Below, one piece after another: positions 989 to 34,419 of a stretch of 64,000 nucleotides of DNA. Each line of letters starts with the position of its first letter. Positions within the stretch are counted from its first letter, which is position 1. Below the pieces are notes generated by a model that was not told the DNA's origin, made no database searches, and worked only from the letters and a program-made list of their open reading frames with translations. The position numbers were made by a program, and so were the translations under genes. The stretch lies in the NCBI RefSeq assembly GCF_988242995.1, contig NZ_OZ547043.1. One strand, 5' to 3'.

Positions 989-1035
989 AAAAAAAAAGAA
1001 AGGTAACTTCCCCCGCGAGAGGGAAGTTACCTTTC
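989..1035 (-). terminator. Perfect 15-bp inverted repeat (gaaaggtaacttccc / gggaagttacctttc, 8-nt loop) followed on the minus strand by a 9-T run; attenuator-like element in the ygcW 5' leader
   Basis: Read directly: arms 998-1012 and 1021-1035 are exact reverse complements; A9 run at 989-997 on + strand is a T9 run on minus strand, about 25 nt upstream of the ygcW start codon. Confidence 0.4.
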
Positions 1036-1088
1036 TCATTATCTCTGGTAACTGGAGATAATTTTTATCATAAGGGCATAATCGCTAA

Positions 1089-20863: not shown

Positions 20864-22216
20864 TTATTGCCCCGCGACAGGTTTCAGCTCGATACGCTTG
20901 ATATCGCCCACCAGCACCAGGTAGCTCAGTACCGCGATTAAGGCATGAACACCAACATAAATCAGCGCCCCATTAAAGGAGCCAGTCGTGCCAACGATAT
21001 AACCAATTGCGATTGGCGTGACGATGCCAGAAATGTTACCGAACATGTTGAACAGGCCACCGGAAAGACCGCTGATCTCTTTTGGCGCGGTATCAGCCAT
21101 TACTGCCCAACCCAGCGCCCCGATGCCCTTACCGAAGAAGGCCAGCGCCATAAAGCCGATGATCATCCACTCAACGTTGACGTAGTTGCAGAACACCATC
21201 ACCATCGACAGCAACATGCCCATTACGATCGGTGTTTTACGCGCAATGTTCAGCGATCCCGTGCGGCGCATCAGCCAGTCGGAAATAATCCCACCCAGCA
21301 CACCGCCGATAAAACCGCAAACCGCCGGAACGGAAGCCACAAAGCCCGCTTTCAGAATCGACATCCCACGCGCCTGCACCAGATAAACCGGAAACCAGGT
21401 AATGAAAAAGTAAGTCAGGGCGTTGATACAGTACTGACCGATATAAACGCCGATCATCATCCGTGACCCGAGCAGCTGTTTGATCTGCCCCCACTTCACG
21501 CTGAACGGCACTTTAACTTTGGTATTTTGCTGATCCATATTGATCAGCGCGCCACCCGCGGCGATGTACTCCAGCTCTTTCTGATTTACACCCGGATGTT
21601 GATTTGGCTCGTGGATGACTTTCAACCAGATAAAGCTGATGACAATGCCCAGACCGCCCATAAAGAAGAAGACGTGTGACCAGCCCACTTCATGCGTCAG
21701 CCAGCCCATAATCGGCGCGAAGATCACCGTTGCGAAGTATTGAGCGGAGTTAAAAATCGACACCGCCGTTCCCCTTTCCTGCGCCGGAAACCAGGCCGCA
21801 ACAATGCGACTGTTGCCGGGGAAAGATGGCGCTTCAGCAAGCCCGACCAGGAAGCGCAGCGTAAACAGGGCAACGATAATGCCGAATCCACTAAAAATAT
21901 CGACGAAGCCTTGCAGCAAGGTAAACATCGACCAGATAAAGATCGACCAGAAGTAGACGCGTTTTGAACCAAAACGATCCAGCAACCAGCCACCAGGGAT
22001 CTGCCCGATAACATAAGCCCATGAGAAAGCAGAGAACACATAGCCCATTCCCACAGGATCAAGGCCGATATCTTTGGCCATTTCCGAACCGGCGATAGAG
22101 AGCGTAGCGCGGTCGCCGTAGTTGAAGGATGTGACGATAAACAACATCACCACTATCCAGTAACGAGCATTCGTGCGTTTTTCCACACTGCTCGCAGCCT
22201 GACTTAAAGAACTCAT
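20864..22216 (-). CDS. gudP: Glucarate/galactarate MFS transporter
   Basis: 450-aa hydrophobic MFS ORF immediately upstream of gudX in the same orientation. Confidence 0.9.
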
Positions 22217-22670
22217 TGTTGCACTCCTGAAAATTCGCGTTAGCCACGCTCACTCTGGACTGCGACATCGCCAGGAAATCAGAGGTGACGTAGGGTGTTT
22301 TTTGCCGTTTTTATAGGTCGTTCGCCGAATACGGCGCGTGTTTATATCTGGCAATAGCAGTATAAAAAGCGCGCCATAGCGGCTCACCGTGCAACAACAC
22401 AACATTAATGCGTTCAATGAGGCCCAATTTTGGCATTAGCCCTGGACGGTGGAATCCACTTCACGGAAATGAAAACAAGAACAAGAAAGGAAGGGTTAAA
22501 ACGAAGAAATAAAGAAGAGTATGAAATGGATCGCTTGACTCCAGGCAAACGCCAGTAAAAATCCGCGCTATGAAGCAGTTTTTACTGGCATTTGCCTGAA
22601 AAGATTCGATTCAGCACCGCTAAAACGGCATTTACACCGCTAAAACGGCATTTACCGCTCGCTGAACGTA

Positions 22671-23120
22671 TCAGGACAACAGCGTGCCCCAATGTTCGAC
22701 CCACGGATTTGATTCCGTTTCCGGTTCCGGGTTCTCACTGGCGTCAATCAACAGCATTTCGCCAACCCGCTGAGCGCTCTGTTCCTGCAACAAGGCATCG
22801 AACTGTTTGCCACCATTGCAGAAATTCACATAACTACTGTCGCCGAGCGCAATCACGCCATAACGCAGATTCGGCTGGAAGCCCAGGGTATCTTTAATTC
22901 CCTGAAAGAGCGGCACAATGCTATCAGGAAGGTCGCCCTGCCCGGTCGTGGACGTAACCACCAGAACATACTTATCCTGATAGGGCAGCCAGTCGCTTAA
23001 TTCAGGATCTTCAAATACCGTTGCTTTGTGGCCCTGCGCGGTCAGAATTGCTTCCGCTTCTTCCGCCACTAACAGCGAATTTCCGTACATAGTGCCGACA
23101 AAAATACCAATTTCCGCCAT
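22671..23120 (-). CDS. yqcA: Flavodoxin-like protein
   Basis: 149-aa ORF with flavodoxin signature ([22 protein letters not shown]). Confidence 0.85.
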
Positions 23121-23137
23121 ACCATTTTCTCCCTGGA

Positions 23138-23920
23138 TTAGGAACTTATCTCTCCATCCTGACCCGATGGCGCACTGAACTCAACCCTTTCATTTTCAGG
23201 AAGCAGACCCCGCCAGCCAAATTGTGATAACGCCTGCATCCAGGTGTCGTCCAGGCCCGCGTGAATAGTCAGCGGCTCGCCAGTAAAAGGATGCGTCAAT
23301 GACAACTGACTGGCATGCAGCATTAACCGCTGAAGGCCAAAATGTTCAGCACCGCTGCGATTCTGGCGTAAATCACCATGTTTGCTGTCGCCAATAATCG
23401 GGTGGCGCAAATGGGCAAGATGGCGACGGAGCTGGTGCTTGCGTCCGGTTTTCGGCTCCAGTTCCACCAGGCCGTAGCGCGTGGTCGGGTAACGTCCGGT
23501 CGCTACCGGCATTTCTACGGTCGCCAGACCGCGATAATGCGTCACTGCTGGCTGTGGGCCTTTATCTTCGCGGGCAAATTTATCAGCGATTTTGTCCAGT
23601 TCTTCCACCAGTGGATAATCCAGAACTGCTTCTTCCATCAACCAGCCGCGCACAATCGCATGGTAACGTTTCTGGATTTGGTGCTGTTCAAACTGTTGTG
23701 CCAGCAGCCGTCCGGCCTCGCTGGATAATCCCATCAACAACACACCAGAAGTTGGTCGGTCCAGACGATGAGCAGTAAACACATGCTGGCCTATCTGGTC
23801 ACGCACGGTTTGCATGACCACTACTTTCTCGTCGCGATCCAGCCAGCTACGGTGAACCAGCCAGCCGGAGGGTTTATTTACCGCAACCAGCCATTCATCC
23901 TGATAGAGTATTTCCAGCAT
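23138..23920 (-). CDS. truC: tRNA pseudouridine(65) synthase
   Basis: 260-aa ORF with RluA-family catalytic motif ([12 protein letters not shown]). Confidence 0.9.
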
Positions 23921-24249
23921 TAGCTCGCATCATCCGCAAAAAGAGCATCCAGTTTTTCCAGCTCAGCCAGAATAAGCGCGCGTTGCGGGTGGTCCGTCGC
24001 CAGCGCCATTTCATAATAGGGAGCAACGGCAAAAGCGCCCGGTAACGGCTGGTTGTTTTCTAACAAATCGTGCATTCGCGGGATCAGCACCCACTGCAAC
24101 CACTCCAGTGGTTCCATGGTGTCCATAAAGAACGGTTGGGTACTATTAAATTGATGCGGCTGGGGTTCATCGTTTCGCCAGTGCTGATGTTCACGCAGTA
24201 ACGCTTCAAGCGCCTGCAACTGGAAACGAACGCGGTCATGAGTGGTCAT
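23920..24249 (-). CDS. yqcC: DUF446-family protein
   Basis: 109-aa ORF with start overlapping the truC stop. Confidence 0.8.
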   Translation of the reverse strand: MTTHDRVRFQLQALEALLREHQHWRNDEPQPHQFNSTQPFFMDTMEPLEWLQWVLIPRMHDLLENNQPLPGAFAVAPYYEMALATDHPQRALILAELEKLDALFADDAS

Positions 24250-24293
24250 AAAGCAACCTCAATAAGAAAAACTGCCGCGAAGGATAGCAGGAA

Positions 24294-24660
24294 TAAAAAA
24301 AGGGAGCACTGTATTCACAGTGCTCCCGGTTCGTTTCGCAGCATTCCAGCTACTTTTGTTGCTCCCTGCTCATCCTTGACAACTTTTCCTCTGGCCTTGC
24401 GGCCAATCGTTCATCCTGAACTATTGCTTCCTGCTCACACCACCCCGATGTGATACTTCATCCTGAAGTGTCCCTGGCCTTCCTGACCCACCGAATCATC
24501 CTGACCGGTTCTCATTCTCCATCCTGGAGGTGTCCTTTAACGCGTCCTGCGTCATCCTCTTCGCTTCATCCAGAAGCCTTTCCCTGAAACACCATCCTGG
24601 TGTGTCCTTCAGAAGTGTCATCATCCTGATGTTCACTTCGTTGTCTGACTCCCTGTCGAC
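24294..24660 (-). ncRNA. csrB: CsrB small RNA (CsrA-sequestering), with 3' intrinsic terminator
   Basis: Minus strand begins gtcgacagggagtc and carries many CAGGA(U/A)G repeats (seen as catcctg on the + strand); ends in hairpin gggagcactgtgaatacagtgctccc plus U-run (24294-24327). Confidence 0.9.
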
Positions 24661-24833
24661 GAAGATAGAATCGTCTTTTTCGCGAAGTCTTACAAGGCGC
24701 TTACAGACAATGCCTTAAGGAAAATTTCATATGAAAGTTAAGGATTAACAAGCAATATATTGATTTTAAATGAAAATAACGATTCTTATCTTTTTAAGTA
24801 TTCGCTTATTTCCTGGCGATCTCCTACAGAGTC

Positions 24834-24851
24834 TGTAAGAGATCTCTCACA
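24834..24851. promoter_or_regulatory. UvrY/SirA binding box upstream of csrB
   Basis: tgtaagagatctctcaca is the exact reverse complement of TGTGAGAGATCTCTTACA, about 175-190 bp upstream of the csrB 5' end. Confidence 0.75.
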
Positions 24852-24870
24852 ACCAGATGGGGTATTTGGA

Positions 24871-25416
24871 TTACAGAAGAGGCTTAAGTTGATTAAGGAA
24901 TTCCGCAAGATTTGAGGCTAAATGCGCCCGTTTACGTGTTCCCAGCGTCTCTTTACACACTTCACCGGAGAGATTACACACCGAGATCACCTCTAACTCT
25001 TCTTCCAGCGTCGCGATAAATAGCGTGGGCGGCAATTTTAGCCTTTTCTGAGTCACCAGATGACCAATCAGATTTTCCTGCACCCGACGGAAGTCGTCTT
25101 CACTCCAGGTTTGCAGCAATGTCAGTTTAATATCGCCAAACTGCGCGTGCATATCCCCGGCAAACTGAGTCGTATAAAAGGTATGAATTGTGGGTTGTAT
25201 CACAATATCAAAAGCGCGTTCAACCGCGTTTACATTTTGTTCCCCGGTAAACGGCTGGGGTTGCCAGTATACGGCGTCTTCGGTGGTTGAAATAATGCAC
25301 GGTGAAGGAACGCCGTACAGTTCCTCACTCAACGGCCAGCTTTTATGCTCTTCATGCCACGCATCGCAGTAGCGTGCAGTAAAATCTTTCAGGGCTTGTG
25401 CGGTCAAATCGTCCAC
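24871..25416 (-). CDS. syd: SecY-interacting protein Syd
   Basis: 181-aa ORF in the K-12 position between csrB and queF. Confidence 0.85.
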
Positions 25417-33873: not shown

Positions 33874-34059
33874 TAGCTACCTCTCTCTGATTCAAAACAG
33901 GGCAATAATGTTGTTCCTTTCACACTATTGAATTAGCCGTTTAATTACCCACCATCTTCTTCCTGATTAACCAGAAAGAAATTCACAAGCTTATATTTTG
34001 TGACCTGGTTCAACTAATCATAGTAAATAACTGCAAGTTCTCTTTTTATAACCCTATTA

Positions 34060-34101
34060 AAAATGACCGCTCTTAAAAATATTTATCAAAACGGTCATTT
34101 T
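34060..34101. promoter_or_regulatory. 10-bp inverted repeat in the fucAO / fucPIKUR divergent control region
   Basis: aaaatgaccg-N22-cggtcatttt read from sequence; related cggtca / gaccg half-sites recur nearby. Candidate FucR operator. Confidence 0.3.
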
Positions 34102-34419
34102 TCCATTCCCCCTCGCCAGAAATGCCCGTTTTCGGCACAAACAATTAATACGGTCATCGGGTTTGTGTTTTTTATGATTTATTTTCTGAAACGGGCATGA
34201 AATTTCGATTATTAAAGTGATGGTAGTCACATAAAGTCACCTCCCAGCTAATAAGTGTGACCGCCGTCATATTACAGAGCGTTTTTTATTTGAAAATGAA
34301 TCCATGAGTTCATTTCTGACAGGCAAATATTCACTGATATGAAGCCCGAACTCGCTGGTTTTGCACTTTTGAAAACATAACCGATTACGTGCTTAAGCTT
34401 CTGAACCTAAGAGGATGCT

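What the first reader, a model, noticed from the sequence alone, without database searches (positions are those of the whole stretch)
22544..22596. 18-bp inverted repeat and adjacent polypurine tract in the gudP-yqcA intergenic region
ggcaaacgccagtaaaaa (22544-22561) and tttttactggcatttgcc (22579-22596) form a long near-perfect palindrome with one mismatch and a 17-nt loop. Just upstream, 22465-22530 is an almost pure purine run on the + strand (gaaaacaagaacaagaaaggaagggttaaaacgaagaaataaagaagag). Together with the tandem repeat this 400-bp spacer is unusually structured for a simple promoter region and could hold an operator, a terminator for yqcA, or an unannotated small RNA.
Basis: seen in the sequence. 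Interest (0 to 1): 0.35.

Follow-up and report, generated by a model that had tools for sequence, protein, structure and literature searches.

The report
Hairpin ending the yqcA operon transcript
The long palindrome between yqcA and gudP in E. coli folds in RNA into the stem-loop where transcripts of the upstream yqcA operon end, and the adjacent purine-rich tract looks like a Rho loading zone, so this is an ordinary transcript-end signal.

Summary
The inverted repeat is real. It is the longest in the 64-kb window, and on the minus (gene) strand it folds into a roughly 26-bp RNA hairpin (-46 kcal/mol, z = -6.6).

Published 3'-end maps of E. coli K-12 place minus-strand RNA 3' ends 1-7 nt after the hairpin base. 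These are listed as the "distant primary" 3' terminus of yqcA, including a 5-nt RNase II trimming event.

The hairpin has no U-tract. What follows it on the minus strand is the finding's "polypurine" tract, which there reads as a C/U-rich, G-poor, unstructured stretch. A bicyclomycin study lists a Rho termination region in this spacer.

Best reading: Rho-dependent termination of the yqcA operon, followed by exonuclease trimming back to a protective hairpin, which also shields the gudP promoter from read-through.

In other genera the homologous hairpin is a canonical intrinsic terminator. Escherichia lost the GC-rich inner stem and lengthened the outer stem.

Not supported:
- a small RNA
- a small ORF
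- a repeat-family element

Still open: the hairpin arm carries a GGCAWWTGCC motif that also occurs in the conserved gudP promoter core, at a rigidly conserved spacing. A second, DNA-level role cannot be excluded.

Ordinary feature, low novelty.

The parts
22540..22600 (-). RNA hairpin at the 3' end of the yqcA operon transcript. About 26 bp including G-U pairs, with an 8-nt apical loop (22567-22574) and one bulged A. It contains the finding's 18-nt arms (22544-22561 and 22579-22596).
   Evidence: Fold of the minus strand gives -46.3 kcal/mol, z = -6.6. Inverted repeat I1. The stem is conserved with compensatory changes across Escherichia, Citrobacter, Salmonella and Superficieibacter: one pair occurs as AU:7, CG:6, UA:3, and 75.7% of cells pair against 30-51% when the partner is slid. 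Among 6 Escherichia lineages, 7 of 44 stem columns vary against 12 of 17 apical columns (Fisher p = 9e-5).
22533..22539 (-). Experimentally mapped RNA 3' ends, 1-7 nt after the hairpin base (MG1655 2922417-2922423).
   Evidence: TRS re-analysis of term-seq and RNAtag-seq gives peaks at 2922417, 2922418 and 2922420, classed 'Distant primary, yqcA' (PMC10687069 Supplementary Data 2-4). The RNase II sheet lists a 3' rnb stop at 2922422 and start at 2922417, 5 nt of trimming; transcription unit 2922421..2925313 covers csrB, syd, truC, yqcA and yqcC (PMC10667835 Tables S3, S4, S7). Coordinates were mapped onto the window from the MG1655 sequence.
22465..22530 (-). The finding's purine tract, read on the transcribed strand: a C/U-rich, G-poor, unstructured stretch directly 3' of the hairpin. 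It is a candidate Rho utilisation (rut) region. It is also the length-constrained spacer between two conserved DNA blocks.
   Evidence: Minus-strand composition is C18, G3, U38, A7 (C/G = 6, 16 YC dimers). It is the most strand-biased 66-nt stretch in the window, and its G content is in the lowest 0.1-0.3% of windows. The 79-nt fold is only -3.6 kcal/mol, z = -0.6. C exceeds G in the homologous spacer of 35 loci, mean C/G 2.3.
22533..22670 (-). The yqcA 3' untranslated region: 138 nt here, 118 nt in MG1655.
   Evidence: yqcA stop at 22671. 3' ends as listed above. TRS Supplementary Data 4 gives a 118-nt 3'UTR for MG1655.
22615..22655 (-). Polymorphic 20-nt tandem repeat inside the yqcA 3'UTR (unit CACCGCTAAAACGGCATTTA on the + strand).
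   Evidence: 2.0 copies in the window, one copy in MG1655, and 4.1 copies in strain WP7-S17-ESBL-01.
22234..22234 (-). Reported peak coordinate of a Rho termination region (MG1655 2922118, minus strand, 'orphan'). Resolution is low because the method uses 800-nt windows.
   Evidence: PMC7815308 Supplementary file 2. Reads upstream/downstream are 114/23 untreated and 112/90 with bicyclomycin; Rho score 3.98, p = 9e-8.
22514..22539 (-). Conserved block GTCAAGCGAYC-N-TTTCAYACTC immediately 3' of the hairpin. Function unknown.
   Evidence: It is present in about 35 loci from many genera, including some that lack the hairpin. Its distance to the CGTGAA block is 75-76 nt in nearly all loci, and 65 nt in two. 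It gives only a weak CRP-like score: 7-8.5 bits in other genera and 3.9 bits in E. coli.
22581..22599 (-). Motif S1 (TCAGGCAAATGCCAGTAAA) in the 5' arm of the hairpin. It resembles the conserved gudP core block S4 at 22426-22444.
   Evidence: A matrix built only from S4 sites of 58 loci ranks this arm second among 128,000 positions of the window (11.9 bits). The other arm (22541, + strand) ranks tenth. S1-to-S4 spacing is 154-156 nt in 20 loci and 146 nt in both Salmonella.

Best explanation
The inverted repeat acts as RNA on the minus strand. It is the terminal stem-loop of transcripts coming from the upstream yqcC-truC-yqcA genes; one published transcription-unit table extends that unit back to syd and csrB.

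Proposed mechanism:
1. RNA polymerase transcribes through the hairpin because no U-tract follows it.
2. The next roughly 70 nt of untranslated RNA are C/U-rich, almost free of G and unstructured. Rho loads there and stops transcription before or around the gudP promoter.
3. 3'-to-5' exonucleases then chew back until the very stable hairpin blocks them, leaving ends 1-7 nt from its base. RNase II removes the last 5 nt.

The result is a stabilised yqcA mRNA 3' end and a gudP promoter shielded from read-through.

Shown: the hairpin, its conservation, the mapped 3' ends, the RNase II trimming, and the base composition.
Inferred: that Rho, rather than the hairpin itself, stops the polymerase, and that the tract is the rut site.

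In evolutionary terms the element descends from a canonical intrinsic terminator that is still present at the same position in other Enterobacteriaceae.
For: Structure
- Strong hairpin on the minus strand, where the only mismatch becomes a G-U pair.
- Across 20 species, G-U pairs on the minus strand (63) outnumber A-C mismatches (24), the combination that would be G-U on the plus strand.

Mapped 3' ends
- Minus-strand 3' ends lie at MG1655 2922417-2922423, the hairpin base, in two independent published analyses. They are assigned to yqcA.
- One analysis records RNase II trimming from 2922417 to 2922422.

Not a classical terminator
- The consensus scan finds no intrinsic terminator on this strand.
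- My own scan finds none in any of 6 Escherichia spacers.
- The TRS table records only 3 U residues after the end.

Rho
- A Rho termination region is listed in this spacer. Bicyclomycin raises downstream reads about 4-fold relative to upstream reads.
- The tract after the hairpin has C/G = 6 and 4.5% G, and folds at only -3.6 kcal/mol over 79 nt.

Evolution
- At the homologous position, 20-26 nt before the conserved GTCAAG block, Citrobacter, Superficieibacter, Raoultella and Enterobacter sp. 10-1 have a stem followed by T5-6 on the same strand.
Against: - Adams et al. list no Term-seq 3' end here in three conditions.
- Their Rho coordinate lies about 300 nt downstream of the hairpin, inside the predicted gudP leader, and has 800-nt resolution. 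It could equally reflect premature termination of gudP-promoter transcripts or an indirect effect of bicyclomycin.
- The tract is U-rich (58%) more than C-rich (27%).
- An end 6-7 nt after a stem is also the distance expected for hairpin-driven termination.
- The rigid spacing of the hairpin arm and neighbouring blocks to the gudP core promoter is not explained by an RNA-only role.
Confidence: 0.62

Rival explanations
1. Non-canonical intrinsic terminator. The unusually long and stable hairpin alone makes RNA polymerase release the transcript about 7 nt downstream, without a U-tract and without Rho. RNase II then nibbles 5 nt.
For: The longest mapped end (2922417) lies 6-7 nt after the stem base, the classic release distance. 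The element is homologous to canonical terminators in other genera. The stem is very stable at -46 kcal/mol.
Against: The 12 nt after the stem (GAGUCAAGCGAU) contain only 2 U. Consensus scans do not call it a terminator. With bicyclomycin, downstream read density rises to about 80% of upstream, against about 20% untreated, which argues that the hairpin alone stops little. The inner stem next to the internal U5 run is only 4 bp, CUGC/GCGG.
Confidence: 0.18
2. DNA-level regulatory element, possibly in addition to the RNA role. The hairpin arms and the neighbouring conserved blocks would form a distal, helically phased upstream module of the CdaR-dependent gudP promoter. In this reading the arms are binding sites for a dimeric regulator (CdaR or another) that also binds the similar S4 block near -84.
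For: - The arm is the second-best match in 64 kb to a matrix built from S4 alone. The chance that the best non-self hit falls in this spacer is about 0.007. S1 sites of other genera score 8-19 bits.
- The GGC and GCC of GGCAWWTGCC are invariant even in genera where the long stem does not form.
- Spacings are rigid although the sequence between the blocks is scrambled: S1-to-S4 154-156 nt, and GTCAAG-to-CGTGAA 75-76 nt. The exceptions differ by about 10 nt, one helical turn.
- The same matrix places its top hits of the 16-kb garP-garD locus inside that intergenic region, and its second-best hit of the 8-kb cdaR locus upstream of cdaR.
Against: - A matrix from the well-conserved -42 box (TGTG-N4-TGCAC) shared by gudP, cdaR and garP/garD does not hit S1 or S4.
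- The variable position inside the arms changes on both sides so that pairing is kept, which is expected for a stem and not for a protein site.
- Short spacers (Enterobacter, the Citrobacter freundii group) lack the whole module yet keep the core promoter.
- No binding data exist for this region. My CRP matrix gives only 3.9 bits in E. coli.
Confidence: 0.22
3. A small regulatory RNA derived from the yqcA 3'UTR, or an independent small RNA gene, that ends at the hairpin.
For: A conserved block (CTGAATCGWGTTAGC) lies just 5' of the hairpin across genera. Other genera have a proper terminator with a U-tail. A stable 3' end exists.
Against: No Rfam match even at permissive thresholds. E. coli has no U-tail for Hfq. 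The RIL-seq-based sRNA prediction table contains only 'yqcA CDS', with probability 0.0002, and no 3'UTR or IGR node. No 5' processing site for this region appears in the RNase tables that were searched.
Confidence: 0.05
4. A plus-strand feature. Either a 29-codon ORF (ATG at 22470 to TAA at 22556-22558) that ends in the hairpin, or a plus-strand promoter (TTGACT at 22535, AAAAAT at 22557) firing antisense to yqcA.
For: The ORF exists in E. coli. The consensus scan finds the promoter-like site with 9 of 12 matches. TTGACY is conserved.
Against: The ORF is not conserved. It runs 2-29 codons in nearly all of the 34 loci where it could be traced, its frame differs between Salmonella, Citrobacter and E. 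coli, and it is cut to 10 codons in an E. coli strain. The GGAA abuts the ATG, leaving no usable Shine-Dalgarno spacing. Other genera have TAAAAA without the final T as the -10. One promoter-like hit is what the shuffles give (mean 0.6). No plus-strand 3' end was listed at the searched coordinates.
Confidence: 0.03

Closest known systems
Rho-dependent terminators whose transcripts are trimmed back to a protective stem-loop (the model of Dar and Sorek 2018, as summarised in PMC7815308)
   Same: A stable hairpin without a U-tract. Mapped 3' ends a few nucleotides after its base. A G-poor, C/U-rich unstructured untranslated tract downstream. Bicyclomycin-sensitive read-through in the spacer. Documented exonuclease (RNase II) trimming.
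   Different: Rho action has not been mapped to this tract at nucleotide resolution. The tract is more U-rich than C-rich. The hairpin is unusually long (about 26 bp) and descends from an intrinsic terminator.
Canonical (often bidirectional) intrinsic terminators with an A-tract, stem and U-tract
   Same: Orthologous elements in Citrobacter, Superficieibacter, Raoultella and others are exactly this: GTAAAA, a GC-containing stem, then TTTTTAC. The E. coli arms still contain the A5 and U5 runs.
   Different: In Escherichia the GC-rich inner stem has decayed to 4 bp. The A and U runs pair with each other inside a longer stem, and nothing U-rich follows the complete hairpin.
REP/BIME and ERIC extragenic palindromes
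   Same: An intergenic, imperfect palindrome at the 3' end of an operon that can protect mRNA from exonucleases.
   Different: This element is single-copy (median one place per genome in 5,425 E. coli genomes). From my own knowledge of those families, it bears no sequence resemblance to REP or ERIC consensus sequences. Enterobacter and some Citrobacter have REP-like GCCGGGTAAGGCG elements in its place.
Palindromic operators and upstream activator sites of sugar-acid regulons (CdaR/SdaR regulon: gudPXD, garD, garPLRK, cdaR)
   Same: It lies upstream of a CdaR-dependent promoter. The arm motif GGCAWWTGCC resembles a block of the conserved promoter core, and its spacing to that core is fixed.
   Different: 18-nt arms 17 nt apart are far larger than a usual operator. 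The arms covary to keep pairing. They do not match the -42 box shared by the regulon's promoters. No binding data exist.

Membership tests
Intrinsic (Rho-independent) terminator | Stable stem-loop in the nascent RNA | tested here: met
   -46.3 kcal/mol, z = -6.6 on the minus strand.
Intrinsic (Rho-independent) terminator | U-tract (about 5 or more U within 8 nt) directly after the stem | tested here: not met
   The tail GAGUCAAGCGAU has 2 U. No call by the consensus scan or by my scan in 6 Escherichia spacers. The TRS table gives U counts of 3/3.
Intrinsic (Rho-independent) terminator | RNA 3' ends 7-9 nt after the stem base | tested here: inconclusive
   Published ends lie at +1 to +7. This is also what exonuclease stalling would give.
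Intrinsic (Rho-independent) terminator | Termination independent of Rho | tested here: inconclusive
   A published bicyclomycin experiment lists a Rho region in this spacer (score 3.98, p = 9e-8), but at 800-nt resolution.
Rho-dependent terminator with protective 3' hairpin | Untranslated, unstructured, G-poor and C-rich tract of about 70 nt or more on the nascent RNA | tested here: met
   C18, G3, U38, A7 over 66 nt, in the lowest 0.1-0.3% of windows for G content. The fold is -3.6 kcal/mol over 79 nt. Caveat: the tract is more U-rich than C-rich.
Rho-dependent terminator with protective 3' hairpin | Read-through increases when Rho is inhibited | tested here: inconclusive
   Literature table only: downstream/upstream reads are 23/114 untreated and 90/112 with bicyclomycin at MG1655 2922118. 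The source of the downstream reads is not resolved.
Rho-dependent terminator with protective 3' hairpin | Mature 3' ends produced by 3'-to-5' exonuclease trimming up to the hairpin | tested here: met
   RNase II start 2922417 and stop 2922422, 5 nt. Literature data, with coordinates checked against the sequence.
Rho-dependent terminator with protective 3' hairpin | Direct Rho binding or termination on this template in vitro | not testable with these tools
   Needs in vitro transcription with and without Rho and NusG.
Hfq-dependent small RNA derived from a 3'UTR | Terminator hairpin with a U-tail for Hfq | tested here: not met
   No U-tail in E. coli.
Hfq-dependent small RNA derived from a 3'UTR | Recovered as an Hfq-bound partner in RNA-RNA interactome data | tested here: not met
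   Only 'yqcA CDS' appears, with sRNA probability 0.0002. No 3'UTR or IGR node is present in the table of PMC8175672. The original RIL-seq tables were not available.
Hfq-dependent small RNA derived from a 3'UTR | Membership of a described RNA family | tested here: not met
   A permissive Rfam scan of 21900-25200 returned only chance-level hits here (E at least 1.7). csrB was found as expected.
Repetitive extragenic palindromes (REP/BIME, ERIC) | Many dispersed copies per genome | tested here: not met
   Median one place per genome, maximum 3, in 5,425 E. coli genomes.
Transcription-factor operator or upstream site of the gudP promoter | The same motif recurs in the promoter core and in co-regulated promoters | tested here: inconclusive
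   The S4-derived matrix ranks the arm second in 64 kb and hits the garP-garD and cdaR upstream regions. The matrix from the shared -42 box does not hit the arm.
Transcription-factor operator or upstream site of the gudP promoter | Fixed, helically phased distance to the promoter | tested here: met
   S1-to-S4 is 154-156 nt in 20 loci and 146 nt in Salmonella. GTCAAG-to-CGTGAA is 75-76 nt, or 65 nt.
Transcription-factor operator or upstream site of the gudP promoter | Protein footprint or ChIP signal | not testable with these tools
   No binding data were found. The supplements of the CRP Footprint-seq preprint are not held.
Small protein-coding gene (plus strand, 22470-22558) | Reading frame and length conserved in relatives | tested here: not met
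   Lengths run 2-29 codons in nearly all loci, with frame shifts between genera and a 10-codon truncation in an E. coli strain.

The most novel reading that the evidence does not exclude
The hairpin is a dual-use element. As RNA it ends and protects the yqcA operon transcript. As DNA, its arm (motif S1, GGCAWWTGCC) and the adjacent conserved block form a distal, helically phased module about 175-240 bp upstream of the CdaR-dependent gudP promoter. This module would cooperate with the similar S4 block near -84, for example through a DNA loop held by CdaR or another regulator. That would explain why spacer lengths stay fixed to within 1 nt, or change by about 10 nt, while the spacer sequence itself has been scrambled.
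Probability: 0.2. Interest if true: 0.45.

Novelty: new member of a known kind. Interest (0 to 1): 0.2.

Why it matters
For annotation, this gives the yqcC-truC-yqcA operon a defined 3' end and a plausible termination mechanism. It also explains how the tightly inducible gudPXD promoter is shielded from upstream transcription.

The cross-genus comparison is a small, clean example of an intrinsic terminator that lost its U-tract logic in one lineage (Escherichia) and appears to have been replaced by Rho plus a protective hairpin.

The side observations are the more useful leads:
- rigid promoter architecture
- a -42 palindromic box shared by gudP, cdaR and garP/garD
- the S1/S4 motif pair

To my knowledge the DNA site recognised by CdaR has not been defined, and gudP-promoter/CdaR cassettes are used as glucarate biosensors. 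Knowing which upstream parts matter would help their design.

Tried and rejected
- **Rfam.** A permissive scan of 21900-25200 found nothing real in the spacer.
- **Repeat family.** The spacer is single-copy in E. coli genomes.
- **Plus-strand ORF.** The 29-codon ORF ending in the hairpin is not conserved.
- **Consensus folding.** RNAalifold on all 20 species does not recover the long stem, because distant genera keep only an inner terminator stem. Covariation support is therefore modest: 6-16 of 500 shuffles reach the observed values.
- **CRP.** A matrix built from 40 published high-affinity sites gives no hit above 4 bits in the E. coli spacer. The conserved GTCAAGCGA...TCACA block scores 7-8.5 bits in other genera, below the weakest training site at 10.1. 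I do not call it a CRP site.
- **The -42 box matrix.** The matrix from the shared -42 box does not match the hairpin arm or S4.
- **Literature.** No paper mentions yqcA together with gudP, and no CdaR binding motif turned up. The paper that mapped the gudP promoter (PubMed 10762278) is not held.
- **Supplements not held.** Dar and Sorek 2018, the RNase III targetome, RIL-seq 2016 and Footprint-seq. RNase III cleavage of the 26-bp stem could therefore not be checked.
- **Adams et al.** Their Term-seq tables list no 3' end in the spacer.

Full report
**Locus.** The window is Escherichia coli. gudP lies at 20864-22216 and yqcA at 22671-23120, both on the minus strand. They are followed by truC, yqcC and csrB, as in MG1655. 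The 454-nt spacer (22217-22670) therefore holds the yqcA 3' end and the gudP promoter. No feature is annotated there in MG1655 or in the other RefSeq records sampled. The spacer is present in 5,425 of 5,426 complete E. coli genomes, essentially single-copy and mostly at least 99% identical.

**Checking the observation.**
- The two 18-nt arms are exactly where stated, with one mismatch and 17 nt between them.
- The repeat is the longest of only eight inverted repeats of this class in the 64 kb.
- The mismatch is C/A on the plus strand but G-U on the minus strand.
- Minus-strand RNA folds into a roughly 26-bp stem (22540-22600) at -46.3 kcal/mol (z = -6.6). The plus strand gives -38.3 kcal/mol.
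- The purine tract is 85% purine over 66 nt rather than nearly pure. It is nevertheless the most strand-biased stretch of that length in the window.
- Relative to the genes, the tract lies downstream of the hairpin.

**Comparative evidence.** I fetched yqcA loci from 80 species of Enterobacteriaceae; 70 keep the yqcA-gudP arrangement.
- The hairpin is present in Escherichia, Citrobacter (koseri, amalonaticus and sedlakii groups), Salmonella and Superficieibacter.
- Compensatory changes occur: GCCAG/CTGGC, GCCTG/CAGGC and GCCCG/CGGGC. One pair is seen as AU:7, CG:6, UA:3.
- 75.7% of cells pair, against 30-51% when the partner is slid. Shuffles rarely reach the observed values (6-16 of 500), which is modest support given how related the sequences are.
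- G-U pairs on the minus strand (63) outnumber A-C mismatches (24), which favours the minus strand as the functional RNA.
- Among six Escherichia lineages the apical 17 nt are almost rewritten (12 variable columns) while the 44 stem columns are kept (7 variable, mostly G-U changes; p = 9e-5).
- In Citrobacter, Superficieibacter, Raoultella and Enterobacter sp. 10-1, the same position holds a textbook intrinsic terminator on the same strand: a stem followed by T5-6. Most non-Escherichia species also have a second GC-rich hairpin right after the yqcA stop codon.
- No Escherichia spacer contains a canonical terminator anywhere between yqcA and the conserved GTCAAG block. In Escherichia the inner GC stem has decayed to CUGC/GCGG, the outer stem gained about 7 bp, and the stop-proximal hairpin is replaced by a 20-nt tandem repeat.

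**Experimental evidence from the literature.**
- A re-analysis of term-seq and RNAtag-seq data (PMC10687069) lists minus-strand 3' termini at MG1655 2922415-2922428, with peaks at 2922417, 2922418 and 2922420. They are classed as the "distant primary" terminus of yqcA (3'UTR 118 nt). The upstream sequence ends ...GCCUGGAGUCAAGC, and only 3 U residues are counted.
- An RNase targetome study (PMC10667835) lists 3' ends at 2922422 and 2922423, and an RNase II trimming event from 2922417 to 2922422. It also lists a transcription unit 2922421..2925313 containing csrB, syd, truC, yqcA and yqcC.
- Mapping these coordinates onto the sequence puts all the ends 1-7 nt after the last base pair of the hairpin, at window 22533-22539.
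- Adams et al. (PMC7815308) list no Term-seq end here. They do list a Rho termination region at 2922118 on the minus strand. Reads upstream/downstream are 114/23 untreated and 112/90 with bicyclomycin (score 3.98, p = 9e-8), computed with 800-nt windows.

**Mechanism.** The hairpin has no U-tract. The RNA that follows it is C18, G3, U38, A7 over 66 nt and folds at only -3.6 kcal/mol over 79 nt. It is G-poor, pyrimidine-rich, untranslated and unstructured, which is what Rho needs. C exceeds G in the homologous spacer of 35 loci, with a mean ratio of 2.3.

The most economical reading has three steps:
1. Polymerase passes the hairpin.
2. Rho loads on the C/U tract and terminates before or around the gudP promoter.
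3. Exonucleases trim back to the hairpin, and RNase II takes the last 5 nt.

The mapped ends and the trimming are shown. Rho acting on this particular tract is inferred. The main rival is that the hairpin alone releases polymerase about 7 nt downstream.

**What it is not.**
- No Rfam family matches.
- It is not a dispersed repeat.
- The plus-strand 29-codon ORF that ends in the hairpin is not conserved.
- A small RNA is unlikely in E. coli. There is no U-tail, and no 3'UTR or IGR node for this locus appears in a RIL-seq-based prediction table.

**A loose end that keeps the operator idea alive.**
- The 5' arm of the hairpin contains GGCAAATGCC. Its G and C positions are invariant even in genera where the long stem cannot form.
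- A weight matrix built only from the universally conserved gudP core block S4 (YTGGGCTTATGCCMYAAAC, window 22426-22444) ranks this arm second among 128,000 positions in the window.
- The same matrix places its top hits of the 16-kb garP-garD locus inside that intergenic region, and its second-best hit of the 8-kb cdaR locus just upstream of cdaR.
- Distances are rigid across genera although the intervening sequence is scrambled:
  - S1-to-S4: 154-156 nt (146 in Salmonella)
  - GTCAAG-to-CGTGAA: 75-76 nt (65 in two genera)
  - CGTGAA-to-S4: 26 nt
  - S4 to the TGCAC box: 48 nt
- Against this, a matrix from the -42 box shared by gudP, cdaR and garP/garD does not match the arm. Species with short spacers also lack the whole upstream module.
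- I therefore keep a DNA-level second role as a minority, non-exclusive reading.

**Verdict.** The element is an ordinary transcript-end hairpin, most likely part of a Rho-dependent terminator that evolved from an intrinsic one. It is unannotated in the genome records sampled but already visible in published 3'-end tables. Interest is low. The promoter-architecture leads are the part worth an experiment.

Noticed in passing
window 22615-22655: The 20-nt tandem repeat in the yqcA 3'UTR varies in copy number between E. coli strains: 1 copy in MG1655, 2 in the window, and 4.1 in strain WP7-S17-ESBL-01. In other genera a GC-rich hairpin (CCCTCCC..GGGAGGG) sits at this position instead.
   Followed up: yes
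window 22388-22402 (-), with the -10 TATACT at 22360-22365; L083 2397-2411; L082 9036-9050 and 9077-9091: A palindromic box TGTG-N4-TGCAC lies 24 nt upstream of the -10 in gudP. The same box sits at the same 24-nt distance in the cdaR promoter, where TTGCACAATG is invariant from E. coli to Dickeya and Pantoea. It also occurs twice in the garP-garD spacer. This is a candidate CdaR binding site at about -42.
   Followed up: partly
window 22426-22466 (-): The core gudP upstream blocks TTTCCGTGAAG..CTTCCA and GGGCTWWTGCCAYAAAC are conserved in all 70 loci with invariant spacing (26 nt and 48 nt to their neighbours). Their function is unknown. The first has a CRP-like layout but scores -0.4 bits with my CRP matrix.
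   Followed up: partly
window 22514-22539 (-): The block GTCAAGCGAYC-N-TTTCAYACTC is conserved across many genera, including some without the hairpin. It sits 75-76 nt (65 in two genera) from the CGTGAA block. It is weakly CRP-like in other genera (7-8.5 bits) and scores 3.9 bits in E. coli.
   Followed up: partly
window about 22225-22290 (-), the gudP leader: A conserved hairpin (TCATTCTGA..TCAGAATGA; CACCTCTGA..CCAGAGTGA in E. coli) has compensatory changes in 3 of 6 predicted pairs. A second small stem lies just before the Shine-Dalgarno sequence. The published Rho-region coordinate (MG1655 2922118, window 22234) falls here, so the gudP leader may itself be subject to premature termination.
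   Followed up: partly
window 22601-22614 (-) and the homologous position in L007, L022, L046, L062: The block CTGAATCG(W)GTTAGC is conserved just 5' of the hairpin (GCTGAATCGAATC in E. coli). From memory it resembles a Cra/FruR half-site. This was not tested.
   Followed up: no
L013 (Citrobacter sp. FP75); hit H20 (E. coli EC6563): L013 has a 1,962-nt yqcA-gudP spacer, indicating an insertion. In E. coli EC6563 only 31% of the spacer is matched. Both suggest local rearrangements.
   Followed up: no
L010, L012, L017, L025-L045 (Citrobacter freundii group, Enterobacter): In these species the whole upstream module (hairpin, GTCAAG block, spacer) is replaced by REP-like GCCGGGTAAGGCG elements. 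The core promoter from CGTGAA onwards is kept.
   Followed up: partly
window 997-1036, 1211-1250, 34059-34102: Other notable inverted repeats in the window: a perfect 16-nt pair with an 8-nt loop at 997-1036, a 17-nt pair at 1211-1250, and a 22-nt pair with no loop at 34059-34102. My CRP matrix gives strong hits nearby at 1087, 1144, 33997, 34214 and 34254.
   Followed up: no
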